Shown piece by piece: positions 1 to 46,684 of a stretch of DNA of 64,000 bases. The stretch's first letter is position 1; each line of letters opens with the position of its first letter. The position numbers were made by a program, and so were the translations under genes. The notes beneath the pieces were generated by a model. It saw only the letters and a program-made list of their open reading frames with translations, did no database searches and was not told the origin of the DNA. Source of the stretch: a phage; NCBI GenBank assembly GCA_024682255.1, contig GCA_024682255.1_4716.1, one strand, 5' to 3'.

Positions 1-340
1 CACCGGATTCCCGTTAATTGCTGGAACCCCCTAAAGCCTTTCGACCACAGCGGATTCTGAAAAGAAAAACGCGATGGTTAGAAAACAGAAAGGATGTTCG
101 TAAGGAAGCGATAAATGGGCAATCAGCAGCGAAGCTTCTAAGGGCGTGCGTTAGCAATAAGACCTAAGAAGAACGTTCAACGACTATCCGGTCGCGCGGA
201 GTAAGGGACAAGCGTCCCCAAACACGGGAGGGGTGCGAAAGCATTCCATGATATAGTCTGCTCCTAAGTGAAAGCTTAGGCGGGTGGCACACACCGGCAT
301 AAGAGTTGCGTCTTATGTGGACAATGGCTTGACATCTCCT
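1..340 (+). ncRNA. Group I self-splicing intron, catalytic core (5' end and upstream exon outside window; 3' boundary approximate)
   Basis: Conserved group I elements in canonical order: P AATTGCTGG 16-24, Q AATCAGCAGC 121-130, R GTTCAACGACTAT 174-186, S GATATAGTC 250-258; hairpins 205-218 and 263-280; no long ORF. Confidence 0.6.
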
Positions 341-366
341 CGTCCTACCCGAATGGGCAGATCCTG

Positions 367-582
367 TTGAATCTATCCAGAGCATGTGTTTTTCGTGAGC
401 TCTCACGCATTGAGGGCGTCTCTGACTATCAATTCAGGAAGTTAGGTATCAACTTTATTACCGGAGGTAAAACGAACGCTGTAGACTTCTGTAGAATCGT
501 TTATAAAGCACCGTCGATGTTTGAACTTTTAGAACATTTCGATGCGACGCGTCCAAAAGAGGAAGCACGGACCATCGAATGA
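367..582 (+). CDS. Possible 3' exon or C-terminal coding segment downstream of the intron (frame open from 280; splice junction unknown)
   Basis: Only + strand ORF here, followed by hairpin 631-662; TTG start in ORF track, so more likely continuation of an interrupted gene. Confidence 0.3.
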   Translation: MNLSRACVFRELSRIEGVSDYQFRKLGINFITGGKTNAVDFCRIVYKAPSMFELLEHFDATRPKEEARTIE

Positions 583-630: not shown

Positions 631-662
631 CCCCTCCCCCTGGCGGAAGCCGGAGGGAGGGG
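631..662. terminator. GC-rich hairpin with GNRA tetraloop between convergent genes (bidirectional terminator candidate)
   Basis: CCCCTCCCCCTGGC-GGAA-GCCGGAGGGAGGGG perfect extended stem. Confidence 0.5.
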
Positions 663-668
663 TGGGGT

Positions 669-1154
669 TTATGTGTGTTCGTTGCCAACTTTCACTTTGT
701 AATCAGCATCGGTTAAGAAAATAGACAGGAATCCATGTTCTTTGCAAATCTGACTAAGGATGTCAGCAATGATTTCGTTGATCATCGGTTTGTTTGCAAG
801 GGCATAGATGTACCCGGGTGTAAAAGAAAGTGCATGATTGATCATAGGCTCATGAGAAGCCAAGATAAGGATCACGTGATGCTTCCCATCGTCGGTAACG
901 ACCGCTTGCGTAGACACGAAGAAATCAGTGAAGCAGCAGCGATCACAGGCTTTAGGTATATACAAATCACCCAGAGCTTCGTCACGTGCTTTTACGTGTG
1001 TTTCAGGGGTAATGCTGCTAAGTTGATCTTCAGCGAGATCCAAGACATCCTCAATCGTTTTAAGAATAGCGTTGCGGAAATCCTCGCGGTAGAATGGGAT
1101 GATATCACGATCGTTCATGTAATCGCCGGATTCGATAGTAAAGTTGATGTTCAT
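669..1154 (-). CDS. Hypothetical protein (161 aa), small-gene island member
   Basis: ORF with AGGAG RBS upstream of ATG; hairpin downstream. Confidence 0.6.
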   Translation of the reverse strand: MNINFTIESGDYMNDRDIIPFYREDFRNAILKTIEDVLDLAEDQLSSITPETHVKARDEALGDLYIPKACDRCCFTDFFVSTQAVVTDDGKHHVILILASHEPMINHALSFTPGYIYALANKPMINEIIADILSQICKEHGFLSIFLTDADYKVKVGNEHT

Positions 1155-1224
1155 TGAATGCTCCTAGTGGTTATGTCGATTGATTGATGTATTGATTTAT
1201 GTTTGAAGGTGTTGTTCACCTTCG

Positions 1225-1665
1225 TTAGATATCATCATCCGTGGTGCCGTAGGACATATGCTGAATTAATTTTCTCGGCTCGATGAAAATACGACATGTG
1301 ATAAACACATCGGGATCGTATTGCTCCACGCAACGTCCGAAGGCTTGTTTTGCGGCTTGACGCACCGATGTTATTTCCTGATCGTTCATCGCATTATCGA
1401 ATTCGATGTTGATCGTGATTTTATCGGGAAATAAATAGATAAAGTAATCGCCACTGATACCACCATCATCAAAGTGACGTTCATTGTAACACTGGACGAG
1501 CTTACCTTCACGTTCTTTCTGATACCATCCAAGGATACTATTAAGACCTCTGTCCACGCATTCGAATGCTTGAGTAATAACATCCTCAACGACGGAGGCT
1601 GCCGTGGGACCATTGAATAGACGATCTAAGCGCTTTTTCATCGATTTGTCGGTTTTCATGTTCAT
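1225..1665 (-). CDS. Hypothetical protein (about 146 aa), small-gene island member
   Basis: ORF 1225-1692; likely start at internal ATG 1665 preceded by AGGAAAAG RBS; shares an I.I.F.N.MND.(D/E)I motif with the 669-1154 product. Confidence 0.6.
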   Translation of the reverse strand: MNMKTDKSMKKRLDRLFNGPTAASVVEDVITQAFECVDRGLNSILGWYQKEREGKLVQCYNERHFDDGGISGDYFIYLFPDKITINIEFDNAMNDQEITSVRQAAKQAFGRCVEQYDPDVFITCRIFIEPRKLIQHMSYGTTDDDI

Positions 1666-1742
1666 TGTTTCTTTTCCTGTTATAGTCAACATATAGCCCT
1701 TCCCCGGCCTTGACGGCTAGGGAAGGGTATGTTTACGTATAT

Positions 1743-2138
1743 TTACTCTTTGACGTCAGTTGTCGTTTCGACATGCTTCTCACTACTGACGTACCAGAGC
1801 AGGTACGCTGGGAAAAGATTGACCTCTAAGCTAAATGGGATATTGTATTTCTCTTCCATTTTACAGAGATGTTCTTTAAGTAAATTTCTCGCGTCTCTGT
1901 CACCACGAACAGAGTGCCAGTCTAGTTCTTTGTTCTCCTTTACCAGGACCTCTACGATGATACGTTGCTCGTGAACCTCGGTTTTCACAGTGAAAAGTAA
2001 ATCGCTGCTATCAAAACGGGTAAAACGAATGTATGAACCTGGTGTTTTTTCTTGTTTAATAATATCGATCATGGTAGAAATGCGCGGATGATCGATGTTG
2101 TCGTTAACAGCTTTAACGATGGATTCTACAATGCTCAT
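1743..2138 (-). CDS. Hypothetical protein (131 aa)
   Basis: ORF with AAGGA RBS before ATG; hairpin 1696-1728 downstream. Confidence 0.6.
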   Translation of the reverse strand: MSIVESIVKAVNDNIDHPRISTMIDIIKQEKTPGSYIRFTRFDSSDLLFTVKTEVHEQRIIVEVLVKENKELDWHSVRGDRDARNLLKEHLCKMEEKYNIPFSLEVNLFPAYLLWYVSSEKHVETTTDVKE

Positions 2139-2295
2139 TTTTTATCCTTAATGTTATCGATTTAGAAATATTACTTAATTACTGTTTTATTTATCGATGG
2201 TTGTTACCCATGATGGGAAAGCCGGATGGAAACAGAGCGTGAACGTAACCTTCGTATCGTATTTAATCGCTGAACTTTATCTTTGATAGACATGA

Positions 2296-2754
2296 TTACC
2301 CCTTAGCTCCTTCTTCGTCTGGAGAGTATTCCATCGTGTAGAATTCATAACCATCGGAAAACTTGAGTGTTAATGTAATAGGGAAATCGCACGGCATAGC
2401 TGATTTCGTAAATGCGTTATTAGCAACATCAGCCAACCGACGTATAGCATCGGTCCCGCTGACGCTGAACGGTAGTTGTATGTTGATAAGGATACGACGC
2501 TTGTAAACATAGAAAACAACGGTACTGTCGAGATAAACGCTATGGAACGGTATTGTTGGGATGCGTTCCACAATGGTAAAATACGTCCCGTCATTATCGC
2601 TATGCCCCATCGACCAAATATCGGATTTGCGTAGATTTTGTTTGAGGGATTCGATACTTCGAGTGACGGTCTCAGCAACAGGCGTGACGTAAGTGTCTCT
2701 ATGCGAGTCGAAAAGTTCGTTGACGTTAGATTCGAATGAATACATTGTTGCCAT
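2296..2754 (-). CDS. Hypothetical protein (152 aa), acidic C-terminus
   Basis: ORF in minus-strand array; hairpin 2783-2807 upstream. Confidence 0.55.
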   Translation of the reverse strand: MATMYSFESNVNELFDSHRDTYVTPVAETVTRSIESLKQNLRKSDIWSMGHSDNDGTYFTIVERIPTIPFHSVYLDSTVVFYVYKRRILINIQLPFSVSGTDAIRRLADVANNAFTKSAMPCDFPITLTLKFSDGYEFYTMEYSPDEEGAKG

Positions 2755-2820
2755 TTTCTACCTCAATAGTTTAACCGGCACGTGTCCCCACCTAACAAGG
2801 GACACGATATCATCGATTAA

Positions 2821-3321
2821 TTACTCTTCTGTGTTTTCATTGTCAGGATCGTAGTGGAATTCGAACAGCCCTGAACCGTCGTGCCCGTTGATTGTTAGTA
2901 TAACGGGCATATCGAATCCTCGGACGCGCGAATGAAAACACTGTGCTAATTTGAGTTTGGCGTATGCCACTATTTCATTGACGGCAATGCACGACTCACC
3001 TGTTATACTCAGTATAACGTCGATACTAACAATGTTGTCGTGCAACGCAAAACGCCAGCGATCGATACGATTATTATCTTTAGCAGGTGTCTCGTTTACG
3101 AGATAGACTTTATCGTCAACCGACAAAGCGGGACTCCAGCAACGTTCGTTTATTAAATTCGCCTGGAGTTTTAGTATCGTCTGATCAATAATATCCCAAC
3201 ACGCAACCAGCGTGGCGTCAGACACTGAATTGAGAAGGGTGAGTACTTTATCCTTTATTTTAAGTGCTTCCGCAGGACGCCCGCAAATACCATGCATTTC
3301 AACTTTCTTATTCATATTCAC
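2821..3321 (-). CDS. Hypothetical protein (166 aa), acidic C-terminus
   Basis: ORF in minus-strand array. Confidence 0.55.
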   Translation of the reverse strand: MNMNKKVEMHGICGRPAEALKIKDKVLTLLNSVSDATLVACWDIIDQTILKLQANLINERCWSPALSVDDKVYLVNETPAKDNNRIDRWRFALHDNIVSIDVILSITGESCIAVNEIVAYAKLKLAQCFHSRVRGFDMPVILTINGHDGSGLFEFHYDPDNENTEE

Positions 3322-3360
3322 TTCTTTCTTAATCTAAATGTTAGTTGGGGGATGGGATGC

Positions 3361-3993
3361 TTACATGCTTTCTAGCATATTGACGATCATGGAACCCATA
3401 CCGAAACTCGGTCTCTCACCGATATACTCAGCAAGTTGACGGTGTACGTCTTTTGGATTTCCTTCTTCACCGTCAGCATCGATGTAGACCGAAAAAGAAA
3501 CCGAATCGGAATCCACGCTGATAACCAGACGACGTTCATTGCGTTCCTTGAGCGTGTCGACGATAGATGCTTTCAGTACCGGGATCGCATTCATCGCGTG
3601 CAAGATATCTCCATCAGGTCTCGCCAGATCGATCTTTTCTTTCAGGTCGATATTGATGTTGGTTACAATTGGGTTGAGGTCGACCTTGACATAATCGTTG
3701 GGATACATGCGAATAATCGCACGATCGATATCTGAACCGTAAAAGTCAACACGTGGCTTTAACACCTCTTTGTTTGGATCCATGTTTTCATCCATACCCG
3801 CCTGCAAGAAACGTTCTACGTTATCCAGTTCACGATAAACTGACGCTTCGATTTCTTTCAGATAGTTGGCTGCGGTTTCATGTTCTTTACGTAGCTCGTC
3901 TTTAAGGAGCTGTACGGTGGTTTCACTGGAACGAATGCTGTTCGCGAATTGGGTAATTGACATATCGAATTCCTTAAATTCTCTTGAGTTCAA
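3361..3993 (-). CDS. Hypothetical protein (210 aa)
   Basis: ORF in minus-strand array; strong terminator 4028-4045 upstream. Confidence 0.6.
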   Translation of the reverse strand: MNSREFKEFDMSITQFANSIRSSETTVQLLKDELRKEHETAANYLKEIEASVYRELDNVERFLQAGMDENMDPNKEVLKPRVDFYGSDIDRAIIRMYPNDYVKVDLNPIVTNINIDLKEKIDLARPDGDILHAMNAIPVLKASIVDTLKERNERRLVISVDSDSVSFSVYIDADGEEGNPKDVHRQLAEYIGERPSFGMGSMIVNMLESM

Positions 3994-4027
3994 TTGATGA
4001 TGAAAAGCTGTAAAAAAGGTGGGGCGA

Positions 4028-4045
4028 ACCCCACCAAAACGTCAG
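4028..4045 (-). terminator. Rho-independent terminator (minus strand) after gene 4061-4486
   Basis: GGTGGGG-CGAA-CCCCACC stem-loop followed on minus strand by T6. Confidence 0.7.
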
Positions 4046-4060
4046 ACACACGCAGGAAAA

Positions 4061-4486
4061 TTAATTCAGTGACGCATATAAGGCATAACGACTGTAGATT
4101 TCAACCGCCGGTCCGTTATGCGTTAACAGACCATCCCGGTTGTAATACTGGAAAAATGAATAACGTTTGTCGAAGTGATAAACAAAAGCAATGTCTTTGC
4201 CGTCAAAACCTGTGATGCGTGGTCTGTTTTTATCTAGCAATGCTTTAACTTTTAACAGTGTTGCCGCACGTGCTTTAACGTTAGGGATCAAGCCATCACA
4301 ATCGATATAAACAGTGTAACCTGTTTCAGATGTTGCGACGGTCGTATTGCGATTGACGCGGAAGATTTTTGTTTCGTATGTACTATCTTCAAGAATTGGG
4401 TTTTGTTTTTCGTATTTTCGTTTACGCAGAAATTCTACAACGGTGATATAGTTAGCGGTAATATGCCCGGTTATAGCTTGTAACAT
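4061..4486 (-). CDS. Hypothetical protein (141 aa)
   Basis: ORF with conserved leader ATCCAATATAAAAGGATGTCGAG before ATG. Confidence 0.6.
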   Translation of the reverse strand: MLQAITGHITANYITVVEFLRKRKYEKQNPILEDSTYETKIFRVNRNTTVATSETGYTVYIDCDGLIPNVKARAATLLKVKALLDKNRPRITGFDGKDIAFVYHFDKRYSFFQYYNRDGLLTHNGPAVEIYSRYALYASLN

Positions 4487-4658
4487 CTCGACATCCTTTT
4501 ATATTGGATTGATTGCAATTGTCTTAAATAGATGATAAGATATTTTGCTCTTATCACTAAGGTAACGCTTACGCGTCGCGTTCATGATGCATGGCATCAT
4601 GAAGGTAATGTAGTCGTGAAATAAACTGCGTTAACACGAAATAAAAAACAGCATAGAA

Positions 4659-4690
4659 CCCTCTCCCAACCCGTAAGGGAAGGGAGAGGG
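4659..4690 (-). terminator. Conserved 32-nt hairpin element, copy 1
   Basis: CCCTCTCCC-AACCCGTAAGGGAA-GGGAGAGGG; identical copy at 11827-11858, variant at 51905-51936. Confidence 0.6.
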
Positions 4691-4703
4691 AATATTAAAA
4701 TTG

Positions 4704-5159
4704 TCACTTTATATTGAACGCTTTTCGCAACGCATTAAGAACTAAATTAATTTCTTGCGCTTGTAACTTTAATCCCTGTGCTGAGCCATCAAACCCAAGC
4801 CAACGCCATACAAGGCATTTTACAGGTTTGTTGCTATCGTCGATACTATATGTGATCTCCAGTGTACTTTGATACGCGTAGTCACCATGTGTTTTCAGTG
4901 ACTGATTGAAATAAATATCAAATGCTTCTTCTATAGCCTGTTTACCGCGATCGTTACAAACAAACGCGATGTATCCGTCGGAATATCCAACTTCCTCTGG
5001 ATGTCCTTGGCAGGAGAAAATACTGATGGCGTCTTGCTGAGCAAGATTGAACACCGTGAAGAAATCACCAAATAAAGGATCGAGATTTAATGCGTTGTTA
5101 TCGATAAGGTTCCTTACCGCTTTACGGTATTCTCCCAGACTATTGTTCGCTGTAAACAT
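4704..5159 (-). CDS. Hypothetical protein (151 aa)
   Basis: ORF in minus-strand array followed by conserved hairpin. Confidence 0.6.
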   Translation of the reverse strand: MFTANNSLGEYRKAVRNLIDNNALNLDPLFGDFFTVFNLAQQDAISIFSCQGHPEEVGYSDGYIAFVCNDRGKQAIEEAFDIYFNQSLKTHGDYAYQSTLEITYSIDDSNKPVKCLVWRWLGFDGSAQGLKLQAQEINLVLNALRKAFNIK

Positions 5160-5169
5160 TCTTTTACCT

Positions 5170-5571
5170 TTAAATATCGTGGATAGCGGTGCCGTTTAGC
5201 CAACAATACAACTTAATGCGACACGGATAGCGATTCGTAGCCAAGAGCAGTTCATCGCGTAAACGCTGGTAGATTTCATCCTGGTGTTCGCGATCAATGG
5301 GGTAATCGGCCCAACATTCGATCATGACGTCACCATTCGTCAGAATCGTCGTACGCATCCTGTCCTGGATACGGCGGTCTTTCCCGGCATTAGGGAAATA
5401 CATTCCTTCGGTACGAATAAGGTCGCCGCAGGGCATGACTAACCATTCGTTCGTTTTGCCGGTATTCTTATAATCCATTACAGCTTGCATTGCGGTGTCA
5501 ACGCTAAAAGAAACATAATTCCAAACGGATGTCCAACGATAGATTGCGGGTTGTTCGAGTGTTTCGTTCAT
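5170..5571 (-). CDS. Hypothetical protein (133 aa)
   Basis: ORF in minus-strand array. Confidence 0.55.
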   Translation of the reverse strand: MNETLEQPAIYRWTSVWNYVSFSVDTAMQAVMDYKNTGKTNEWLVMPCGDLIRTEGMYFPNAGKDRRIQDRMRTTILTNGDVMIECWADYPIDREHQDEIYQRLRDELLLATNRYPCRIKLYCWLNGTAIHDI

Positions 5572-5785
5572 GGAGTGCTTGTCCTATTTTTATTTTCTGC
5601 ACAGGATAAATTCAACGGCATAAAGCCCTTCCCTGCCCTTATATGGGGCGGGAAGAGTTTATGACCGCAATGAGAATCTCTCACGACAAGCTCACGACGA
5701 TTATCGCATCACCCCGCGAGTGAGGGAGATCAGGATCACCTCCTACGTCGTAACGACAGTAATCCCGTTAACGCCACCTTAGGCA

Positions 5786-6412
5786 TTATGCAAAGCGACG
5801 CATGTAACCTGCCAGATAGTTACGCGTATCGAAGTAAGCAATTTCAGGAATTGCGATGTTAAGGTCGATAGCGCGGATTTCAACTTGGCGACGGCTTTCA
5901 TCATAGATCGCATCCATCAGACGCAGTACTGTCAGGAAAGCCATGCGGGTATGGTAGTCCAGCGGCATGTTGTCGATACCGCGATACAGATAACGGTTTG
6001 CGTTAAATGCCCCTTCGCTGTTATCTTTCCAGATCTTCAGAATATCAGCAAAGGCGGTGCGGAAAACCTCAGGATTATCCACATCCAGTAACGCACGGAA
6101 GGCAGACATTAAAGACCGCTGATGGCGGATCAACGACTGCGGCGTTTGCGGCATGGTTGGACCCATTTCTTCCGCATATTTCTGGAACGGGGCAACCAGG
6201 GTTGCGGCACGAGAAGCCACGATAGAAACAGCAGGCGATTCTTTCACCGCTGGTTTCGCAGGCTTTTCTTCAACAACGGTTTCCTTCTTCTCAACAGCGA
6301 CCGTTTCCGGCTGTGCTACAACATCACTAACCGGAGCATCTGCAACGGTGGTTTCTACCGCAGTAATCTCCTCGTCCATTTTTGCAGAACGTTGGTCTTT
6401 ATTCTTGCTCAT
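5786..6412 (-). CDS. Hypothetical protein (208 aa) with low-complexity acidic/Pro/Val-rich N-terminal half
   Basis: ORF; hairpin 5625-5656 about 130 nt downstream. Confidence 0.6.
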   Translation of the reverse strand: MSKNKDQRSAKMDEEITAVETTVADAPVSDVVAQPETVAVEKKETVVEEKPAKPAVKESPAVSIVASRAATLVAPFQKYAEEMGPTMPQTPQSLIRHQRSLMSAFRALLDVDNPEVFRTAFADILKIWKDNSEGAFNANRYLYRGIDNMPLDYHTRMAFLTVLRLMDAIYDESRRQVEIRAIDLNIAIPEIAYFDTRNYLAGYMRRFA

Positions 6413-6437
6413 GTTTATTTCCTTTTGTTTAACAAGG

Positions 6438-7739
6438 TTAACTAATATAAAGTTCAGGATCGTAAGGCGCTAACGATACACTGGCGTTATGCATTGCTTT
6501 CATCATAGTGTTCATGAAAACGTTGTTTACACCGGTGATCTCTGCCCCGATCGCATCTGGGGTTGGAGCCATCGCGTTACCGCAACAGGTAGCACAGTAT
6601 TCCAATGGGCCTGCTTTACAACGTTGAGGATCACGTAACTTGATGGTCTGTCCTTCCAAGGAAGCGAGTAATTCAGCATCAATAAGTTTAAGCGCCGCGC
6701 CGTCGATCATGTAACGGCCGACAAGCAGCTTATCTTTGATGTGGTCGCGGTTTACCGTGAACAGAATATGTTCGTGGGTACCACAGTCGTCCATCGTGAT
6801 TTTAAGGTTCTGTGTCGCACGTTGCGATTCTTTCGCCGTCTGTCCAGCTAAAGCGGTCAACGCACCACGTGAGAACGAACCAGCACGTGCGCTGTTGTTG
6901 TACTCCGCCCAATGGTCGACACGCATCCCTTCAGCCAGGCTGTGTGTGATAACGTTACGTTTACCGGGGTCAACGAAGTCGGCTTCAACCCCCATCATGA
7001 TGTGCGTTTTCTTTCGAGTATTACCGAAACTCTTGCCTGGGTTAATATAGAACCCTTCCGATTCATCGCCCTTAAAGGATTCCTTATCCATTTTGGTTAG
7101 CGTGGCTTCGAGTTTGATCAGTTCTTCAGGCGTGAACTTACCTTCCTCTTGTAAGCGTGCTAACTCTTTATCGCGATAGGCAATAATATCATCATCGACC
7201 GTTAACGCTTTATCGCTCATCGATGGGACAATTAAACGGTTGATAGCGGTTAACGCACTGATATTGTTGGTGAATTTCTTCACTTCGCTTGCGTACAGCG
7301 GGCCAATAGGACGTTCGTTAGGATCGGGTATTCCCTCTTCGGGATCGTCAGCTACGCGTGGCGCAATCAGTGACTCCAGTGTGCCGCTGGTCAACCGTCC
7401 TGCCTGGTATTCAATCTGAATACCGAAAGCATCATAAAGGACGTACATATTGAACAGAGCTTCGCCGAAGGTTGTGGTGGTTGTGTTCTTAACCGACGGT
7501 AGATCGCCAGGTGCGAGCTCCAATGGCTCCCAGAAACTCAACAAGGGTTTTGTTGGCTCGGTTTCCCATTGGTGTTCTTCACCGTCGATGGTAACCGTAA
7601 CGACGTTACCTTGACGACGTAATTTAGGCTGATACTTCTCAGCGCCGCCTTCCGTAAAAGCAAATGCGTCGTTAATCCATTCAAGATAACGGTAGTGCCC
7701 TTCACGCATCGCGTAAAGGAAATATTCACGAGGTGTCAT
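6438..7739 (-). CDS. Hypothetical protein (433 aa)
   Basis: Long ORF; Cys cluster CATCCGNAM near C-terminus; no recognised catalytic motif. Confidence 0.7.
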   Translation of the reverse strand: MTPREYFLYAMREGHYRYLEWINDAFAFTEGGAEKYQPKLRRQGNVVTVTIDGEEHQWETEPTKPLLSFWEPLELAPGDLPSVKNTTTTTFGEALFNMYVLYDAFGIQIEYQAGRLTSGTLESLIAPRVADDPEEGIPDPNERPIGPLYASEVKKFTNNISALTAINRLIVPSMSDKALTVDDDIIAYRDKELARLQEEGKFTPEELIKLEATLTKMDKESFKGDESEGFYINPGKSFGNTRKKTHIMMGVEADFVDPGKRNVITHSLAEGMRVDHWAEYNNSARAGSFSRGALTALAGQTAKESQRATQNLKITMDDCGTHEHILFTVNRDHIKDKLLVGRYMIDGAALKLIDAELLASLEGQTIKLRDPQRCKAGPLEYCATCCGNAMAPTPDAIGAEITGVNNVFMNTMMKAMHNASVSLAPYDPELYIS

Positions 7740-10939: not shown

Positions 10940-11299
10940 TTGCTGTTAGCGCGTAAAGGCGATGGTGGCATGAAACTGAACATCGAAATGGGTATAGCGT
11001 ACGATACCATGTTTGGTTTGTACGACCGCGTTAACGAATGGACACCGTTGAAATGGGTGGCTCAGCATCCCGCTGAAGATCCCTGGGACAGATTAGGGAT
11101 TAAACCCTTAATCGAGGATTATGTTCGATTCGGTATTAAAGAGTTCATGACGCTGGATGCGTTTTTAAAAGCACCGTATCCTTACGCGCAAACGGTACTC
11201 AAAATCGCACAAGACGAACTGCGGAAACGTAGTGCGGTACTGGACGACGATGAGGACAAGTTACGACGAGAAGAAGAACGTTTACGAAACGGAAAATAA
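10940..11299 (+). CDS. Hypothetical protein (119 aa) or -1 frame extension of the 561-aa protein
   Basis: ORF track uses TTG start; frame is open upstream back to 10778 overlapping the 561-aa ORF end; internal ATG at 10968. Confidence 0.5.
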   Translation: MLLARKGDGGMKLNIEMGIAYDTMFGLYDRVNEWTPLKWVAQHPAEDPWDRLGIKPLIEDYVRFGIKEFMTLDAFLKAPYPYAQTVLKIAQDELRKRSAVLDDDEDKLRREEERLRNGK

Positions 11300-11300
11300 A

Positions 11301-11810
11301 ATGGCGAGATTTACCAGTTTGATTGGGTTGGATATTTGGGAAACACCGGCTGACGTTCGGGTTATTCCTGTTAACACCGTCGGTGTGATGGGACGTGGTC
11401 TTGCTAAGCAGGCAGCCGATCGTGTGCCCGGTCTTCTTGAAGCGTACCGTAAGCAATGTCAAGATGGGTTTAAGGTGGGAGAAGTCGTGTCATATCAACA
11501 CGGTGATAACGATCAACTCACTTACGTGCTGTTTCCATCAAAATCGGATTGGCGTGAAAGAACACGACGCGAGTATATCGTTAACGGTTTACTGGCGTTA
11601 AAAGCGTGGTTATTGGAGCTTCAGTTCGAAAGAGACGGCTTCTCATATCGGCGTCCGGCTGAACCGCTGATCGTTGCAATTCCTCCGGTTGGTTCTGGCT
11701 GCGGTAATATCGGCTACGGACAATCCGAAACAATCCAGCCTCAATGGGTACGCGCACAAATCAAACAGTATCTTGCCACCGTGCCAAACGTTCATTTCTA
11801 CTTGTTCTAA
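11301..11810 (+). CDS. Macro domain protein, TARG1/OARD1-like (putative ADP-ribose processing enzyme)
   Basis: Motifs VNTVGVMGRGLA and IPPVGSGCGNIGYG match macrodomain ADP-ribose binding loops; ATG at 11301 one nt after upstream stop. Confidence 0.55.
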   Translation: MARFTSLIGLDIWETPADVRVIPVNTVGVMGRGLAKQAADRVPGLLEAYRKQCQDGFKVGEVVSYQHGDNDQLTYVLFPSKSDWRERTRREYIVNGLLALKAWLLELQFERDGFSYRRPAEPLIVAIPPVGSGCGNIGYGQSETIQPQWVRAQIKQYLATVPNVHFYLF

Positions 11811-17269: not shown

Positions 17270-20200
17270 TACATAAACTCCTCGATGATGCAAATCCCAT
17301 TAGCACCGCGCCCACCAGGCTTAGCGGTTCCTGAGTAAGAGTTATCGTAAGCAGCACCACCACCCGAACCAGGCGCGAGGCCGTTATGGGCGGTGCCGAC
17401 ACCAGCACGGCCGCCACCGCCCCAATATGACGCACCCCCACATCCACCGGCGGCAAGAGTACCGGCTTGTCCATCGCTACCGTCTCCGCCCGGAATGCGT
17501 ATATCCCCGGTAGTAGGTACGCCCCCATAGCCACCGCCAGTGTTTGTGACAGTTGTTTTTCCTGCGCCTTGCCCGCCGGGAGCAGTTAGCAGGGATGCAA
17601 ATTTACTATCTCCACCCCCGTTCCCATTCGTCGCCCCAGAGCCACCGGAACCACCAGAACCAATTATAACAGAATAACTAGCAGCTGCTACCGTTATAAC
17701 CGAAATTACTGTTCCGCCAGCTCCTCCTCCAGCGCCAAAAAACGTTTCGCTGTTGGAATAAGCCTGACAACCGCCACCGCCACCGCCACCACCGGTTATC
17801 GTTACTCTAATCCGTTTTGTTCCTTGTGTTGGGGTGTACGTCCCTGACGATGTGAAAACACGCATATTCAGTAAACGCCCGACATATCCACTAGAATCGG
17901 CTAAACCAAGATCTTTAGCTGCTAACGTGATATTAGCCGTACCGTCGAAAGGTTTACCGTTAATCGTGCGCGCAGTTTGCAGCTTCGTCGCCGTTGCTGC
18001 GTTCCCTGATGTATTCTGGTTCCCCGCGGCGTTAACACCTGGTAGATTGATGTTCGCACTACCGTCGAACGCGACACCACCGATCGTCCTTGCTGTTTGC
18101 AGTTTTGTCGCCGTGGCGGCATTACCGGTCGTGTCTTGGTTACCGGTGGTGTTTACCCCAGGCAGGTTGATATTTGCCGTTCCGTTAAATGAGACACCAC
18201 CAATCGTCCTTGCCGTTTGCAACCTCGTTGCGGATGCCGCATTCCCCGTGGTGTTTTGGTTACCTGTTGCATTCACACCTGGGATACTATCCTTAGATGT
18301 GTAGATCTGTGCCCATTCCGACCAGTTCGCATCGGTTGAATCACGACGTGAACGTAAATAAGCTGGAGCGTGTGCACCTGAGGTACCTGACCACCCAATG
18401 AGGATTTCGCCTTCGCCGACCGATGAAGCACCTTTAAGATGAACAATGTTGCCGTAGGCTGTAGGGTATCCGTTATTGTACGCTTCATACATCTGGATAC
18501 CCGTGTTGCTGCCCTGGGTCGCATTAGCTAAAGCGGTGACCCGTCCTTTGGAAGCGAGCACGTTAATGCTAAAGCTAATATCGGTTGTACCGTCAAAGGC
18601 GACCCCGTTAATCTTCCGTGCTGTTTGGAGTTTCGTGGCAGTAGCCGCATTACCAGAGGTACTCTGATTACCTGCTTTGTTCACACCCGGTAAATCAATG
18701 TTGGCTGTTCCATCAAAGGACACGCCCCCTATGGTTCTCGCTGTCTGGAGTTTTGTTGCTGAACCAGCGTTTCCGGAAGTGCTTTGATTACCTGCCGCGT
18801 TGACACCTGGTAGGTTAATGCTAGCAGAGCCATCAAAAGAAACTCCGCCGATCGTGATCGGTGTTTTCAATTTCGTGGCTGTCGCGGCGTTACCCGTCGT
18901 ATTCTGATTGCCAGCCGCATTAACGCCTGGTAATGCGATATCGGTCGTACCATCGAACGCAACACCACCGATTTTACGGGCGGTCTGTAGCTTGGTCGCT
19001 GTAGCCGCGTTGCCGCTGGTATTTTGCGTGCCCGCTTCATTTACGCCTGGTAAATCAATGTTCGCAGTACCATCAAAAGAAACACCCCCGATGGTTCTCG
19101 CGGTCTGCAACTTCGTTGCACTTCCTGCGTTTCCGCTGGTGCTTTGATTTCCCGCTGCATTAACACCTGGTAGACTGATGCTGGCTGAACCATCGAAACT
19201 CACACCACCGATCGTAACAGCGGTTTTCAATTTCGTGGCGGTTGCTGCGTTACCGGTTGTATTTTGGTTGCCTGTCGCATTCACGCCAGGTAATGCAATA
19301 TCCGCTGTTCCGTCAAAGGCAACGCCACCGATTTTACGTGCAGTTTGTAGCTTGGTTGCACTAGCAGCGTTACCGCTGGTATTCTGGGTGCCTGCTTTGT
19401 TAACACCGGGGAGATCGATGTTAGCAGAACCATCGAAGCTGACGCCACCTATCGTTCTTGCGGTAGCGAGTTTAGCTGCTGTGGCTGCATTATTACCCAC
19501 TTTCAGCCAATCATCCCATGGACCATCCTGGCCGTTCCATGATGCCGTTAAACTACGTACGTAAATATTGCCGGTACGTACAGTGTAACGTTGCGTTCCA
19601 CCGAATTGCCCGGTTGGGAGCACTTCAATGTAACCTGCGGCGTTTGCTTCAGGGAAATTGTGGGCGATGTCCGCGTTCGTTGTTACTGGTTTAGACCAAA
19701 TACCAACAGACGCTTCGACTGGGCCGAAGGTATTCAGATTTGCGTCTATCGCCATAGCGCCATTAAATTTCAGGTATGTCTCTGGCGATAATCCGATCGT
19801 TTTAGCAAACGCAGCTTTATCTACGATATCACTACCGTTATTCCCTGCTTGCAACGCCGTCTTAGCTGCCTTTATGGTTTCGGTCAATCCAAGATATTGT
19901 AAGATCGCATCAACGCTTCCTTTGTTTAGCAGATTCAGACCTGTTGACGTTACGTTAGTTAGTCCGATTTGGTTCCGTCCAGTAAAATAAGGGAGTTTAT
20001 TCGCTTCTGTTGTTAGGTTAGACCACGCAGTCAACAACGCGTTCAAAGGCTGTTTACCCGCCAACGCATTGGTTACTGTCGTTGCGAAATTAGGATCGTT
20101 CCCTAAAGCTTGAGCCAGCTCATTAAGCGTATTTAGCGCTTCTGGAGACGAGTCGATCAGCGATGCGATAGCGCGCATCACAAATTCCGTGTTGGCAATC

Positions 20201-21243
20201 TGTCGACTGCTATCGTTCTCTGCAGCCGTAGGCGCTGCCGGGATACCGGTGAACACGGGGCTATTAAGATCTGCCTTGAGCGCGATGAGACGTTTAAGTG
20301 CGTCGACATCGACTTTCAGGTTTTCCCACCCGATGAGAGAACCACCACTGCTGGCATGATAACGGTTATACCAGAAGTCACCGTTAATGCCTAAAAAGAA
20401 TATTCCCTTCTCTTCGTTTTGTGGGCCAGAACTGTTCCGTGACGAGCTGATGTAATTGATTTCAATAAGACCGGTAAACGTCACTCCTGGAATTATTTTA
20501 TTGTCTCCAGCTGACTGTGATACCTGGTAAATCCCCGGGGTTGCGGCTTTAACCCATGTTAAGAATTCTGTTACTCCAGCGGTGCCGCTAAAATTCTTAA
20601 CGTCGGTAAGTATTGCCCCATAACCGAACATACCGGGTAGAGCCACTCGTCCGCTGGTACGGTCACGAATATCTGTTACAACAACGGGCAATTGTTTACG
20701 AACGGCATTAACCGCTTTAGGCGTGGCCGATTTTGTCTCGTCGTCGCTATCGGTTGCATTACTTAGAATAGTTAAACCGCGTGTAGCAGTAGTTGCATCA
20801 GGAAGAAATGCGTTATCCAACACCTTAAGCTGTACTGCACTCGTATTACTAACAACGACATGCACTTGACAGTTAAGAACGCTGGTTGCGCCTTCGGCAG
20901 GCGTAGGCTTATATCTTTCTGGTGCACTGCAGACGGCAATCAGAACACCTTGATCATCATACAGACCGATCTCACGTACCCAGAACCCACCTTGACCAGC
21001 AGGAATAATACCCTCAACGATAATCCTGGTTGTGCTATCACCATCCGCATGGATATTAGAAACTTCCCCACGATAAACTTCGTGGACAAGCGCTGTTTGG
21101 CTGGCGGACGGGGTTGGGATCGAGCCGTTACCATCACCAACGGCAAAGTGTGTGATTTTTAGTTTCTCACCGTCGGGAAGTAACGCAGCGGTGATACGTT
21201 CTGCTCCTTTATCGGTAACTACCGTTATATATGCTGTACTCAT
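17269..21243 (-). CDS. Long tail fibre protein (1324 aa), P2 gpH / lambda Stf-like N-terminal domain, 40-aa tandem repeats, Gly-rich C-terminal domain
   Basis: N-terminal motifs AVGDGNG, GGFWVREIGLYDD, ETKSATPKAV, ALNTLNELAQALGNDPNFATT as in P2 gpH; about 11 repeats of ATKLQTARTIGGVSFDG..LPGVN.GNQNTSGNA; poly-Gly run at residues 1151-1158. Confidence 0.85.
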   Translation of the reverse strand: MSTAYITVVTDKGAERITAALLPDGEKLKITHFAVGDGNGSIPTPSASQTALVHEVYRGEVSNIHADGDSTTRIIVEGIIPAGQGGFWVREIGLYDDQGVLIAVCSAPERYKPTPAEGATSVLNCQVHVVVSNTSAVQLKVLDNAFLPDATTATRGLTILSNATDSDDETKSATPKAVNAVRKQLPVVVTDIRDRTSGRVALPGMFGYGAILTDVKNFSGTAGVTEFLTWVKAATPGIYQVSQSAGDNKIIPGVTFTGLIEINYISSSRNSSGPQNEEKGIFFLGINGDFWYNRYHASSGGSLIGWENLKVDVDALKRLIALKADLNSPVFTGIPAAPTAAENDSSRQIANTEFVMRAIASLIDSSPEALNTLNELAQALGNDPNFATTVTNALAGKQPLNALLTAWSNLTTEANKLPYFTGRNQIGLTNVTSTGLNLLNKGSVDAILQYLGLTETIKAAKTALQAGNNGSDIVDKAAFAKTIGLSPETYLKFNGAMAIDANLNTFGPVEASVGIWSKPVTTNADIAHNFPEANAAGYIEVLPTGQFGGTQRYTVRTGNIYVRSLTASWNGQDGPWDDWLKVGNNAATAAKLATARTIGGVSFDGSANIDLPGVNKAGTQNTSGNAASATKLQTARKIGGVAFDGTADIALPGVNATGNQNTTGNAATATKLKTAVTIGGVSFDGSASISLPGVNAAGNQSTSGNAGSATKLQTARTIGGVSFDGTANIDLPGVNEAGTQNTSGNAATATKLQTARKIGGVAFDGTTDIALPGVNAAGNQNTTGNAATATKLKTPITIGGVSFDGSASINLPGVNAAGNQSTSGNAGSATKLQTARTIGGVSFDGTANIDLPGVNKAGNQSTSGNAATATKLQTARKINGVAFDGTTDISFSINVLASKGRVTALANATQGSNTGIQMYEAYNNGYPTAYGNIVHLKGASSVGEGEILIGWSGTSGAHAPAYLRSRRDSTDANWSEWAQIYTSKDSIPGVNATGNQNTTGNAASATRLQTARTIGGVSFNGTANINLPGVNTTGNQDTTGNAATATKLQTARTIGGVAFDGSANINLPGVNAAGNQNTSGNAATATKLQTARTINGKPFDGTANITLAAKDLGLADSSGYVGRLLNMRVFTSSGTYTPTQGTKRIRVTITGGGGGGGGCQAYSNSETFFGAGGGAGGTVISVITVAAASYSVIIGSGGSGGSGATNGNGGGDSKFASLLTAPGGQGAGKTTVTNTGGGYGGVPTTGDIRIPGGDGSDGQAGTLAAGGCGGASYWGGGGRAGVGTAHNGLAPGSGGGAAYDNSYSGTAKPGGRGANGICIIEEFM
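17929..18291 (-). repeat. Coding tandem repeat block 2 (three 120-bp units) within tail fibre gene
   Basis: Three 40-aa repeat units at protein residues about 985-1105. Confidence 0.75.
18574..19491 (-). repeat. Coding tandem repeat block 1 (about 7.5 units of 120 bp, in 360-bp higher-order units) within tail fibre gene
   Basis: Residues about 585-890; units recur with period 40 aa and superperiod 120 aa. Confidence 0.8.
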
Positions 21244-39103: not shown

Positions 39104-41839
<2,736 letters not shown>

Positions 41840-45728: not shown

Positions 45729-46014
45729 GTTCTTTATCCTTTAAAGCGTTTTCTAACCAGCGGACATAACTTTCACGATAAAGGTGAATATGTCTTTTAC
45801 CGTCGCGAAAGTTAGGGTCAATAAGATGAATCGCAGCATGGGTTGAAGTCATCGCATGCTGTAAATGTTTTCGTGTTAATCGCCCAAGTTTTACCCAGCG
45901 TTGAATATACCGCGCGTCTGCCGCTAAACAGGTACGTTCGTCGATGAAAGGTACCAATACCTGAACGATACTACCGTAATACACCATCGAACTGTTGAAC
46001 ATCTGCGTCTCCAT
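45721..46014 (-). CDS. Hypothetical protein (97 aa)
   Basis: ORF with 8-nt overlap to downstream gene. Confidence 0.5.
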   Translation of the reverse strand: METQMFNSSMVYYGSIVQVLVPFIDERTCLAADARYIQRWVKLGRLTRKHLQHAMTSTHAAIHLIDPNFRDGKRHIHLYRESYVRWLENALKDKEHE

Positions 46015-46032
46015 GCAAATGAATGGGGTGGA

Positions 46033-46341
46033 TTAGTGAAGAATTACTGTTTGCGACCCTTTCTCGTATTCGGTAAGTAACTCGTCGTACCGACGATCGA
46101 CCGCCTTGATCGCATTATCGATCTCTGTCGTGTCTGATACAACAGATCGTTTCGCTTCCAGTCGATATACTAACGCATCACGCATACCCTCGGCTGCAGC
46201 GAGTTCGCAAGTTGCTTGATGTTTATTATCCGAAAAGACGAAGAATGGTTTGTTCTCTTCATCAGCCAGGAAGTAGTCACGAATCGCAACCAACCTTTCT
46301 TCTGGAACCAGTTCACAATTGTTTTCGTTCATTTTCATCAT
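46033..46341 (-). CDS. Hypothetical protein (102 aa)
   Basis: ORF in minus operon. Confidence 0.5.
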   Translation of the reverse strand: MMKMNENNCELVPEERLVAIRDYFLADEENKPFFVFSDNKHQATCELAAAEGMRDALVYRLEAKRSVVSDTTEIDNAIKAVDRRYDELLTEYEKGSQTVILH

Positions 46342-46346
46342 CTCTC

Positions 46347-46673: not shown

Positions 46674-46684
46674 ACATACGCTAC

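What the first reader, a model, noticed from the sequence alone, without database searches (positions are those of the whole stretch)
669..5571. Island of nine small minus-strand genes, each with its own hairpin, showing weak shared motifs
Nine consecutive ORFs of 131-210 aa, most separated by GC-rich hairpins, none with recognisable enzymatic motifs. Several share a short beta-strand-like motif (INFTIESGDYMNDRDI in one, ITINIEFDNAMNDQEI in the next; similar I.I..D segments in others) and acidic C-termini, suggesting an old diverged paralog family with shuffled domains. This layout is typical of phage accessory host-takeover or anti-defence islands.
Basis: partly seen in the sequence, partly recalled or inferred. 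Interest (0 to 1): 0.5.

Follow-up and report, generated by a model that had tools for sequence, protein, structure and literature searches.

The report
Variable accessory-gene array in Goslar-like phage
This stretch of a Goslar-like nucleus-forming jumbo phage is a gene-content hotspot in which four of the nine small genes are fast-diverging tandem copies of one orphan protein family; it is a typical phage accessory region of unknown function, not a new kind of system.

Summary
The window is about 92% identical to Escherichia phage Goslar, a nucleus-forming jumbo phage. The nine minus-strand genes are real. Six of the nine have a significantly stable hairpin directly downstream, not all nine.

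- **Paralogy.** Four contiguous genes, W2-W5 (1225-3321), are diverged paralogs of one orphan alpha/beta family. W4, W5 and W2 are linked by profiles. W3 is linked by structure: its AF2 model's only significant hit in the viral structure library is the W5 orthologue. W1, W6, W7, W8 and W9 show no relationship by sequence, and their folds were not tested. The W1/W2 motif is not significant.
- **Variability.** In 22 relatives the island holds 7-13 genes from 13 families, in a fixed order between conserved flanks. One in-frame fusion of adjacent paralogs was found. The variable core has dN/dS 0.20-0.38, against about 0.1 for W1/W6/W7/W9 and the flanking genes.
- **Distribution.** Only six proteins among 1.84 billion representatives match the family profile.
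- **Expression.** Published mass spectrometry detects all seven Goslar orthologues in virion preparations. gp70 (W1) is at about 166 copies per virion, and the paralogs are at trace level.

Function is unknown. A host-interaction or counter-defence role is inferred only from the evolutionary pattern. This is a new member of a known kind, of moderate-low interest.

The parts
669..1154 (-). W1, 161 aa, acidic (pI 4.7). A conserved 'frame' gene and the orthologue of Goslar gp70 (99% identical).
   Evidence: dN/dS 0.10. No profile link to any other island family. gp70 is at about 166 copies per virion in Goslar LFQ mass spectrometry. It is replaced by a 148/149-aa gene in L022, L023 and L025.
1225..1665 (-). 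W2, 146 aa from ATG 1665 (the listed ORF runs to 1692). A member of the paralog family and the orthologue of Goslar gp71 (72% identical).
   Evidence: The merged family profile against W2 gives hhalign 90.6%, E 1.3e-6 over 148 columns. The W4/W5 HMM and the 148-aa HMM each pick W2 out of all 243 window ORFs (E 3.2e-5 and 2.4e-4). dN/dS 0.27.
1743..2138 (-). W3, 131 aa. A remote member of the paralog family, supported by structure. Absent from Goslar. Often found in tandem with a 132-aa copy that is 38% identical.
   Evidence: AF2 model with pLDDT 77 and pTM 0.70, with the same order of structural elements as W5. Its top hit in Foldseek BFVD, and the only one with E <= 1e-3, is Goslar gp73, the W5 orthologue (E 1.3e-5, TM 0.51, 149 columns). 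Sequence alone gives 8.8% but is colinear. Tandem copies are shown.
2296..2754 (-). W4, 152 aa. Paralog family, 'W4-type' (last position). Orthologue of Goslar gp72 (86% identical).
   Evidence: blastp W4 against W5 gives E 7e-6 over the full length. hhalign gives 94%, E 1.2e-7. W4 and W5 fall into one BLAST cluster once divergent members are added. dN/dS 0.38 within the type.
2821..3315 (-). W5, 164 aa from ATG 3315. Paralog family, 'W5-type' (first position). Orthologue of Goslar gp73 (82% identical).
   Evidence: AF2 model with pLDDT 84 and pTM 0.75: an N-terminal long helix, a 4-strand meander, two helices and a beta-hairpin. 61 homologues from 94% down to 47% identity, the named ones labelled E. 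coli, Salmonella or Shigella and many on contigs of about 236-259 kb. dN/dS 0.20.
3361..3963 (-). W6, 200 aa from ATG 3963. Very acidic (net charge -14 for the listed 210-aa ORF). A conserved frame gene and the orthologue of Goslar gp74 (95% identical).
   Evidence: dN/dS 0.13. No profile link to other families. gp74 is at about 8 copies per virion, similar to the vRNAP subunits.
4061..4486 (-). W7, 141 aa, basic (pI 9.4). A conserved frame gene, 100% identical to Goslar gp75.
   Evidence: dN/dS 0.11. Trace level in virion mass spectrometry.
4704..5159 (-). W8, 151 aa. A sporadic insert, absent from Goslar and from 19 of the 21 compared loci. It starts 10 nt after the W9 stop codon.
   Evidence: Present in L015, L027 and L018. 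Weak hit to phrog_21654. Residues 25-85 are 36% identical to jumbo phage KpGz_1 (E 6e-6).
5170..5571 (-). W9, 133 aa. A conserved frame gene and the orthologue of Goslar gp76 (92% identical).
   Evidence: dN/dS 0.11. About 2.6 copies per virion in mass spectrometry.
631..662 (-). GC-rich hairpin followed by a T-run, downstream of W1. It marks the end of the array.
   Evidence: z -3.25, 0 of 200 shuffles fold as well. Coordinates.
1205..1223 (-). Hairpin downstream of W2.
   Evidence: z -3.48. Coordinates.
1697..1727 (-). GC-rich hairpin downstream of W3 and upstream of W2. Conserved in relatives.
   Evidence: z -4.28. Conserved across loci. Coordinates.
2782..2805 (-). Hairpin downstream of W5. 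It is flipped in relative L026.
   Evidence: z -2.61..
4018..4035 (-). Canonical intrinsic-terminator-like hairpin with a T-run, downstream of W7. Annotated as a terminator in Goslar.
   Evidence: The T-run length varies from 5 to 11 among relatives.
4581..4690 (-). Two hairpins downstream of W8 (4659-4690, GC-rich with a T-run; 4581-4604, palindromic and present in only some relatives).
   Evidence: z -6.72..
5626..5657 (-). GC-rich hairpin between gp77 (capsid decorator) and W9. It marks the upstream boundary of the array.
   Evidence: z -4.39. Conserved in relatives. Coordinates.

Best explanation
The region is a lineage-restricted accessory-gene array (a plasticity hotspot) in a Goslar-like nucleus-forming jumbo phage. 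It lies between an intron-interrupted polB-like gene and the genes for the capsid decoration protein and a virion RNA polymerase subunit.

It has three layers:
(a) A variable core of tandem, fast-diverging copies of a single orphan alpha/beta protein family. In this window these are W5, W4, W3 and W2 (1225-3321). Relatives also carry a mid-type copy, a 254-aa form, and 148/149-aa and 169-aa forms. The core expands and contracts by duplication and deletion, by in-frame recombination between neighbouring copies, and by allele replacement.
(b) Conserved 'frame' genes W9, W7, W6 and W1. They are not detectably related to that family or to each other, and they are under purifying selection like the flanking core genes. 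The orthologues of W1 and W6 are enriched in purified virions.
(c) A sporadic insert, W8.

Most genes are separate cassettes bounded by stable hairpins, so copies can be gained or lost without disturbing their neighbours.

The family has no catalytic signature. The most likely role is therefore as non-essential binding proteins that tune the interaction between phage and host (counter-defence, host range or persistence). The anatomy and evolutionary dynamics are shown. The function is inferred.
For: Identity of the genome: about 92% nucleotide identity to Goslar. The exact proteins occur on contigs of about 235-247 kb from E. coli, Salmonella and Shigella assemblies.

Hotspot: 22 architectures with 7-13 genes from 13 families, in a fixed order between conserved flanks. 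The island is the only part of the first 49 kb with unaligned sequence against Goslar (67-83% aligned, against 100% in almost every other 1-kb bin).

Paralogy: W4 against W5 gives blastp E 7e-6 and hhalign 94%. The superfamily links to the 148-aa form (97%), the 254-aa N-half (92-96%), W2 (90.6%, E 1.3e-6) and the 169-aa form (88.7%). Family HMMs pick only W2, W4 and W5 out of the 243 window ORFs. The W3 model's top BFVD hit is the W5 orthologue, and the order of secondary-structure elements is the same.

Recombination: P0150/L015 is a fusion of halves that are each 89% identical to a different paralog, and L015 has only two copies.

Rates: dN/dS is 0.20-0.38 within the three W4/W5-family orthologue classes and 0.24-0.32 for W2, W3, the 254-aa and the 122-aa genes. 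It is 0.10-0.13 for W1, W6, W7 and W9, and 0.02-0.14 for gp77, gp78 and gp79.

Lineage restriction: only six hits for the family profile among 1.84 billion representatives. tblastn of W1 and W6 finds only Goslar even at E <= 1.

Expression: peptides of gp70-gp76 are all detected.

Concept: accessory regions in phages are defined as variable gene clusters between conserved genes and are enriched for counter-defence genes (bioRxiv 10.1101/2023.04.06.535777). AdfM, a proven chimallivirus anti-defence family, has a homologue about 6 kb away.
Against: No functional evidence of any kind exists for a host-interaction or counter-defence role, and there is no match to any known anti-defence family.

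No gene-wide positive selection was found: no pair has dN/dS above 1. The elevated rates could therefore be relaxed constraint.

The island lies in a virion or late-gene neighbourhood, and gp70 is abundant in virion preparations. This fits a virion-associated role at least as well for W1.

The folds of five of the nine proteins were not determined, so the split into 'family' and 'frame' genes could partly reflect the limits of sequence detection. W3 itself was invisible to profile comparison.

Expression timing is unknown.
Confidence: 0.6

Rival explanations
1. One reading: all nine genes are one ancient paralog family with shuffled domains, together forming a host-takeover or anti-defence island.
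For: Four of the nine are one family. W3 was undetectable by sequence (8.8%) yet shares the fold, so sequence-negative members can exist. By eye, W7 and W9 have a similar pattern of N-terminal helix, beta-meander, helix and hairpin (my inference from the sequences). Halves are exchanged between paralogs.
Against: W1, W6, W7, W8 and W9 give under 1% hhalign probability against the merged profile and against each other. They evolve under clearly stronger constraint. The W1/W2 motif has P about 0.015 among 78 comparisons. W8 has a different distribution, with a partial relative in an unrelated jumbo phage. W1 and W6 behave differently in virion mass spectrometry.
Confidence: 0.12
2. A polymorphic locus for virion cargo or ejected proteins, analogous to the T4 internal proteins. 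Under this reading the island encodes non-essential proteins that are packaged in or on the capsid and delivered to the host with the DNA.
For: gp70 (W1) is at about 166 copies per virion and gp74 (W6) at about 8, comparable to the vRNAP subunits. gp71 and gp76 are at about 3-4 copies. The neighbours gp77 (capsid decorator), gp78 (vRNAP subunit) and gp65/66 (vertex binding complex) are virion proteins on the same or adjacent transcription units. W1 is dispensable, being absent from 3 of 21 related loci. From my own knowledge (not checked here), T4 internal-protein genes are likewise non-essential and polymorphic among T-even phages.
Against: The paralog core proteins gp72 and gp73, and gp75, are at 0.4-0.5 copies, the same level as the non-virion RNAP subunits and a helicase, which are contaminants. 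Chimallin and PhuZ co-purify at about 126-171 copies, so abundance alone does not prove packaging. None of gp70-76 was modelled in the cryoEM map or discussed in the paper. No capsid-targeting or protease-processing signal was identified.
Confidence: 0.2
3. The paralog family is a degenerate or active PD-(D/E)XK-type nuclease family, like herpesvirus UL24.
For: Both independent models (W5 and W3) give recurrent weak Foldseek hits to UL24/ORF20/UL76 and to phage PD-(D/E)XK proteins (E 2e-3 to 1e-1). The order of elements, helix then beta-meander then helix then beta, resembles the PD-(D/E)XK core.
Confidence: 0.05
4. The ORFs are non-functional filler or decaying pseudogenes, and the variability is neutral junk turnover.
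For: They are orphans with no known domains. Presence and absence vary among relatives. dN/dS is elevated in the core.
Against: All reading frames are intact in 22 genomes. dN/dS is 0.1-0.38, well below 1. Peptides are detected for all seven Goslar orthologues. The AF2 folds are confident. Ribosome-binding sites and terminators are conserved.
Confidence: 0.03

Closest known systems
Phage accessory regions (ARs) / hyperplastic regions, as defined by Silas et al. (bioRxiv 10.1101/2023.04.06.535777) and, from my own knowledge, the plastic regions of T4-like genomes
   Same: Small, fast-evolving orphan genes of variable presence, clustered between conserved core genes in otherwise near-identical genomes. 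Individual cassettes have their own regulatory signals. Members are non-essential, judging by natural presence and absence.
   Different: No member has a demonstrated or predicted counter-defence activity. Much of the variability here comes from tandem paralogs of a single family rather than from unrelated imported genes. The region is embedded in a virion-gene neighbourhood of a nucleus-forming phage.
T4 internal proteins (IPI/IPII/IPIII), a polymorphic locus of packaged and ejected proteins (comparison from my own knowledge)
   Same: Small, mostly acidic, non-essential proteins encoded in a polymorphic locus. At least one member (the W1 orthologue gp70) is present at over 100 copies in virion preparations.
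   Different: No capsid-targeting sequence or protease processing was shown. Most island proteins, including the whole paralog core, are at trace level in virions. Injection has not been shown.
Paralogous PF12699 / inner-body-type head protein families of phiKZ-like phages (as described in the Goslar virion paper)
   Same: Lineage-specific paralog families in Chimalliviridae genomes, encoded near structural genes.
   Different: There is no Pfam PF12699 match. The island proteins are much smaller (130-200 aa) and have a different predicted fold. The core paralogs are not abundant in virions.
AdfM, the chimallivirus macrodomain anti-DarT factor (PMC13309987)
   Same: A chimallivirus accessory counter-defence gene in the same genome neighbourhood (homologue at window 11250-11810).
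   Different: AdfM is a recognisable enzyme (a macrodomain) conserved across Chimalliviridae. The island genes have no recognisable domain and are restricted to Goslar-like phages.

Membership tests
Phage accessory region (variable gene cluster between conserved flanks) | Gene content differs among closely related genomes while the flanking genes are conserved and syntenic | tested here: met
   22 architectures with 7-13 genes. The gp77/gp78/gp79 flank is conserved on one side and the polB-like gene on the other. The island is the only gene-content difference against Goslar in 49 kb.
Phage accessory region (variable gene cluster between conserved flanks) | Genes are small, fast-evolving and individually dispensable | tested here: met
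   Sizes are 121-255 aa. Core dN/dS is 0.20-0.38 against 0.02-0.14 for the flanks. W1, W3, W8, the mid-type copy and the 254-, 139-, 122-, 169- and 148-aa genes are each absent from some genomes. W9, W7, W6, W5, W4 and W2 were present in every genome sampled.
Phage accessory region (variable gene cluster between conserved flanks) | Members antagonise host defences or competing elements | not testable with these tools
   No match to any characterised family. Genetics would be needed.
Single paralog family comprising all nine genes | Statistically supported sequence or profile similarity between members | tested here: not met
   Met for W2, W4 and W5. Not met for W1, W6, W7, W8 and W9 (under 1%). 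W3 reaches only 8.8% by sequence.
Single paralog family comprising all nine genes | Shared three-dimensional fold | tested here: inconclusive
   Shared by W5 and W3.
Intrinsic (rho-independent) terminator after each gene | Stable GC-rich stem-loop immediately downstream of the stop codon | tested here: met
   Met for six of the nine genes, with z from -2.0 to -6.7. Absent after W4, W6 and W9.
Intrinsic (rho-independent) terminator after each gene | A run of U directly after the stem | tested here: inconclusive
   Clear after the W7 hairpin. T-rich tracts follow within about 10-15 nt of the W1 and first W8 hairpins. Absent or weak after the W2, W3 and W5 hairpins. The termination rules of chimallivirus RNA polymerases are not known to me.
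T4-type internal / ejected virion proteins | Present in purified virions at high copy number | tested here: inconclusive
   From the literature: gp70 is at about 166 copies and gp74 at about 8, while gp72, gp73 and gp75 are at about 0.4-0.5. Chimallin and PhuZ co-purify at similar levels to gp70.
T4-type internal / ejected virion proteins | N-terminal capsid-targeting sequence removed by the prohead protease, and delivery into the host | not tested
   No signal was searched for rigorously. N-terminal proteomics and localisation experiments would be needed.
PD-(D/E)XK nuclease superfamily | Core alpha-beta-beta-beta-alpha-beta fold | tested here: inconclusive
PD-(D/E)XK nuclease superfamily | Conserved catalytic D...(D/E)xK residues | tested here: not met
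   No such constellation appears among the positions conserved across the five subfamilies or among the invariant positions shared by W4 and W5.

The most novel reading that the evidence does not exclude
The array is a polymorphic locus of virion-delivered effectors in a nucleus-forming phage. Under this reading W1/gp70 (and perhaps W6/gp74 and low-copy paralogs) are packaged and injected with the genome. They would act in the first minutes of infection, before the EPI vesicle and chimallin shell protect the DNA. The tandem paralog family would diversify by duplication and in-frame recombination to match different host defence or surface repertoires across E. coli, Salmonella and Shigella, possibly contributing to the persistent carrier-state lifestyle of Goslar-like phages.
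Probability: 0.12. Interest if true: 0.7.

Novelty: new member of a known kind. Interest (0 to 1): 0.35.

Why it matters
Nucleus-forming phages are thought to rely mainly on physical shielding of their DNA, yet recent work (AdfM, Avs5/JADA) shows that they also need dedicated counter-defence genes and are targeted by dedicated host systems. This array is the main gene-content hotspot in this part of the Goslar-like pangenome. It offers a compact set of expressed candidates (a 7-13 gene cassette array and one orphan protein family with natural duplications, fusions and losses) for screens of host range, counter-defence or persistence in a phage that infects E. coli and is genetically tractable. 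The natural presence/absence variants already amount to a ready-made allelic series. In itself, though, a variable island of orphan genes is common in large phages, so the finding is useful rather than surprising.

Tried and rejected
- A concatenated 1400-aa query in the search for homologous proteins returned nothing, not even the proteins themselves. This was a method failure that cost one of three searches. The exact proteins were later shown to be in the collection.
The first block alignment was also misaligned by MAFFT. Only W5 and W3 could therefore be modelled.
- Pfam, PHROGs, NCBIfam, PADLOC and PDB sequence searches gave no significant family for any of the nine.
- Sigma-70-type promoters were fewer than expected by chance (9 against 14.4). 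I did not pursue them, since from my own knowledge (not checked here) chimalliviruses transcribe with their own RNA polymerases.
- The search for related loci anchored on gp78 found only near-identical genomes.
- The idea that the island proteins are relatives of the adjacent capsid decorator gp77 was rejected (all under 1%).
- The PD-(D/E)XK nuclease idea was rejected as a membership claim because no catalytic motif is present.
- My first search of the Goslar virion paper for 'gp70' to 'gp76' gave zero hits because the table uses zero-padded names. After correcting this, all seven proteins were found.
- Rfam at the gathering threshold on the Goslar locus missed the intron, presumably because the endonuclease ORF interrupts it. 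The window's 3' part does score above the gathering threshold.

Full report
**What the window is.** The region 400-5800 matches Escherichia phage vB_EcoM_Goslar at about 92% identity, but only 79% of it is covered. Goslar is a 237-kb nucleus-forming jumbo phage (genus Goslarvirus, family Chimalliviridae). Six of the nine island proteins occur with exactly this sequence in public data, on contigs of about 235-247 kb from E. coli, Salmonella and Shigella isolate assemblies and from metagenomes. This agrees with a preprint reporting Goslar-like phages as persistent infections in bacterial isolates (10.1101/2024.12.31.630880).

**Check of the observation.**
- Comparison with relatives suggests shorter true starts for W2 (ATG 1665, 146 aa), W5 (ATG 3315, 164 aa) and W6 (ATG 3963 after an AAGGA Shine-Dalgarno sequence, 200 aa).
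- Folding each intergenic region on the transcribed strand against dinucleotide shuffles shows significantly stable hairpins directly after W1, W2, W3, W5, W7 and W8 (z from -2.0 to -6.7). Another lies between gp77 and W9. There is none after W4, W6 or W9. 'Most' is therefore correct and 'each' is not.
- The hairpins are conserved in relatives.
- None of the nine proteins matches Pfam, NCBIfam, PADLOC or PDB sequences at a meaningful level. W8 alone has a weak hit to a PHROG of unknown function.
- Eight of the nine are acidic (pI 4.7-5.6), and W7 is basic.
- The motif shared by W1 and W2 exists as a string match (39% over 18 residues), but its P of about 0.015 is what one expects among 78 pairwise profile comparisons.

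**Is it a paralog family?** Partly.
- Plain BLAST links only W4 and W5 (E 7e-6, full length, 21% identity).
- I collected the island from 21 further Goslar-like genomes and clustered all the proteins, which gave 13 families.
- Profile-profile comparison then defines a solid superfamily: W4/W5 with a 148/149-aa form (97%) and the N-terminal half of a 254-aa form (92-96%).
- Progressive merging of those profiles brings in W2 (90.6%, E 1.3e-6, 148 columns) and a 169-aa form (88.7%).
- Independently, the W4/W5 HMM and the 148-aa HMM each pick only W4, W5 and W2 out of all 243 ORFs of at least 70 aa in the window.
- W3 is not significant by sequence (8.8%, though colinear over about 120 columns with a shared P-x-x-L signature before the last hairpin).
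- Structure settles W3. AF2 models of W5 (pLDDT 84, pTM 0.75) and W3 (pLDDT 77, pTM 0.70) have the same order of elements: N-terminal helix or helices, a beta-meander, a short plus a long helix, and a C-terminal beta-hairpin.
- When the W3 model is searched against the viral structure library, its best hit, and the only one with E <= 0.001, is Goslar gp73, the orthologue of W5 (E 1.3e-5, probability 1.00, TM 0.51, 149 columns, 13% identity).
- W2, W3, W4 and W5 are therefore four contiguous diverged paralogs (1225-3321).
- W1, W6, W7, W8 and W9 give under 1% probability against the merged profile and against each other. Their folds remain open. The W3 case shows that a negative sequence result is not proof of a different fold.

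**How the island varies.** The order of families is fixed:

W9 - [W8] - W7 - W6 - [122 aa] - W5-type - [mid-type, 153-162 aa] - W4-type - [254 aa] - [139 aa] - [W3] - [W3', 132 aa] - W2 - [169 aa] - (W1 and/or 148/149 aa)

- Bracketed genes are present in only some genomes. Totals range from 7 genes (Goslar) to 13 (L023).
- The three W4/W5-family copies keep their relative positions and are only about 20-30% identical to one another.
- In L015 the first copy is 89% identical to W5 in its N-terminal half and 89% identical to the mid-type in its C-terminal half, and that genome has two copies instead of three. This is an in-frame fusion and deletion between adjacent paralogs.
- W5-type alleles are themselves mosaics. 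Goslar's is 89% identical in the N-half and 70% in the C-half, while L010's is 76% and 94%.
- Against Goslar, the island is the only part of the first 49 kb of the window that has unaligned sequence. It also has the lowest identity apart from the tail-fibre gene and two short dips.

**Evolutionary rates** (Nei-Gojobori estimates).
- Flanking genes: gp78 0.02, gp77 0.14, gp79 0.13.
- Frame genes: W9 0.11, W7 0.11, W6 0.13, W1 0.10.
- Core: W2 0.27, W3 0.32, 254-aa 0.24.
- Within orthologous classes: W5-type 0.20, mid-type 0.28, W4-type 0.38, with dN up to 0.25 and no pair above 1.
- The core therefore evolves several-fold faster at the protein level, but I have no evidence of gene-wide positive selection.

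**Distribution.**
- The family profile finds only six representatives among 1.84 billion proteins. The full-length ones (152-170 aa) have the sizes of the W5-, W4- and mid-type genes. That library carries no names or genomic context, so their origin was not confirmed directly.
- W5 and W3 homologues range down to 47% and 44% identity. All named hits are labelled E. coli, Salmonella or Shigella, and many lie on contigs of Goslar genome size.
- tblastn of W1 and W6 against 50,697 phage genomes finds only Goslar, even at E <= 1.
- W8 is the exception, with a partial relative in the jumbo phage KpGz_1.

**What the fold says.**
- Both models give repeated weak Foldseek hits to herpesvirus UL24 and other PD-(D/E)XK-like proteins (TM 0.2-0.34).
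- The positions conserved across the five subfamilies are almost all hydrophobic or aromatic, and there is no D...(D/E)xK constellation.
- I therefore do not file the family as a nuclease. A small non-enzymatic alpha/beta scaffold, meaning a binding protein, is the more likely reading. This is inference.

**Context from the literature.** A 2026 preprint on the Goslar virion (10.64898/2026.04.21.720040) identifies gp77 (window 5786-6412) as a capsid decoration protein, gp78 (6438-7739) as a subunit of the virion RNA polymerase, and gp65/gp66 as vertex-binding-complex proteins. Its Table S4 lists label-free mass spectrometry of purified virions:

| Goslar protein | Window gene | Estimated copies per virion |
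|---|---|---|
| gp70 | W1 | about 166 |
| gp74 | W6 | about 8 (like the vRNAP subunits) |
| gp71 | W2 | about 3.7 |
| gp76 | W9 | about 2.6 |
| gp72 | W4 | about 0.5 |
| gp73 | W5 | about 0.4 |
| gp75 | W7 | about 0.5 |

- All seven Goslar orthologues are therefore expressed proteins.
- The lowest values are at the level of the non-virion RNAP subunits and a helicase, which are contaminants.
- Chimallin and PhuZ co-purify at about 126-171 copies, so abundance alone does not prove packaging.
- None of gp70-76 is discussed in that paper or in any other paper I could search.
- W1 is nevertheless dispensable in nature: three relatives have a 148/149-aa paralog-family gene in its place.

**Most likely explanation.**
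- The region is an accessory region in the sense used for phage genomes: a hotspot of variable, fast-evolving small genes between conserved genes (10.1101/2023.04.06.535777).
- Its variable core is unusual in being built largely from one orphan family that duplicates, fuses and is lost in place.
- The hairpin-bounded cassette layout would allow such changes without polar effects.
- A short ATCRAT element upstream of the ribosome-binding sites of W1, W3, W6 and W7 may be a shared regulatory signal. There are eight composite hits in the window against 0.43 in shuffles, and only two at gene starts outside the island. This was not followed further.
- The functional reading (non-essential binding proteins that tune phage-host interaction, with W1 and perhaps W6 associated with the virion) is inference from pattern and context.
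- I put the anatomy at about 0.9 and the functional reading at about 0.35.

**Verdict.** The finding is a new member of a known kind, a phage accessory region containing a new orphan paralog family. It would not surprise a specialist, but it gives a well-defined, expressed and naturally variable candidate set in an E. coli-infecting nucleus-forming phage.

Noticed in passing
window 1-582 (+); L019 7988-9739; L001 2670-5449: A group I intron carrying an HNH/NUMOD1 homing endonuclease splits a polB-like gene right next to the island. Window 1-280 matches RF00028 at 59.8 bits (gathering score 50), cut off at the window edge. Exon 2 is 328-582 (LDISSSYPNG...TIE*) and continues exactly where Goslar gp68 stops (...RLFVAD*). 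From my own knowledge, this looks like the D-x-x-S-L-Y-P-type motif of family-B DNA polymerases. Eight of the 20 relatives in which this flank could be read have the uninterrupted 583-aa allele, and the others carry endonuclease variants of 368, 378 or 396 aa. Goslar's annotation treats exon 2 as non-coding.
   Followed up: yes
window 11250-11810 (+): A homologue (97% identical) of Goslar gp83, which a 2026 paper (PMC13309987) lists among AdfM proteins, the chimallivirus macrodomain anti-DarT2 factors. This counter-defence gene family lies about 6 kb from the island, but outside it.
   Followed up: partly
window 1161-1188, 2145-2161, 3971-3998, 4494-4513 (-): A short ATCRAT element 4-18 nt upstream of the Shine-Dalgarno sequence of W1, W3, W6 and W7. 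The composite pattern (ATCRAT, spacer, SD, start codon, ORF of at least 60 aa) occurs 8 times in the window against 0.43 in shuffles. Only two hits are at gene starts outside the island (39424 and 44162). It could be a promoter or UTR element, or the trace of duplicated cassettes.
   Followed up: partly
L026 (intergenic region between the W5-type and W4-type genes); L020 (upstream of W7, about 2480-2540): Micro-inversions in relatives. The whole hairpin between W5 and W4 is flipped in L026. In L020 a 26-nt segment upstream of W7 is exactly inverted, and in the same genome W9 is truncated to 102 aa.
   Followed up: no
window 4581-4604 (-) and 4012-4017: A palindromic hairpin (CTTCATGATGCCATGCATCATGAA), part of an indel of about 43 nt, is present only in the window, L005, L023 and L027. 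The T-run after the W7 terminator varies from 5 to 11 T among relatives.
   Followed up: no
window 17272-21243 (-), about 40000-41000, about 46000-47000: Other divergence dips against Goslar without gene-content change: the tail-fibre gene gp90 (82-90% nucleotide identity, 89.6% protein identity), and two 1-kb bins at 88% and 84% identity, against a background of about 95-97%.
   Followed up: partly
window 4704-5159 (-); MN871444.1 154420-154593: Residues 25-85 of W8 are 36% identical (E 6e-6) to an unannotated ORF in the 269-kb jumbo phage KpGz_1. W8 also weakly matches phrog_21654. It is the only island gene with a relative outside the Goslar lineage.
   Followed up: partly
BFVD entry UPI001F132C75: An unnamed 166-aa viral protein matches the W5 model with TM 0.52 and E 4.5e-5 at 9% identity. 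It may be a member of the same fold in another virus. Its identity could not be looked up.
   Followed up: no
window 5786-7739 (-): According to the 2026 Goslar virion preprint, the two genes just upstream of the island, annotated as hypothetical in GenBank, are the capsid decoration protein (gp77) and a virion RNA polymerase subunit (gp78). GenBank's note on gp78 mentions only a weak similarity to an RNAP beta subunit.
   Followed up: yes
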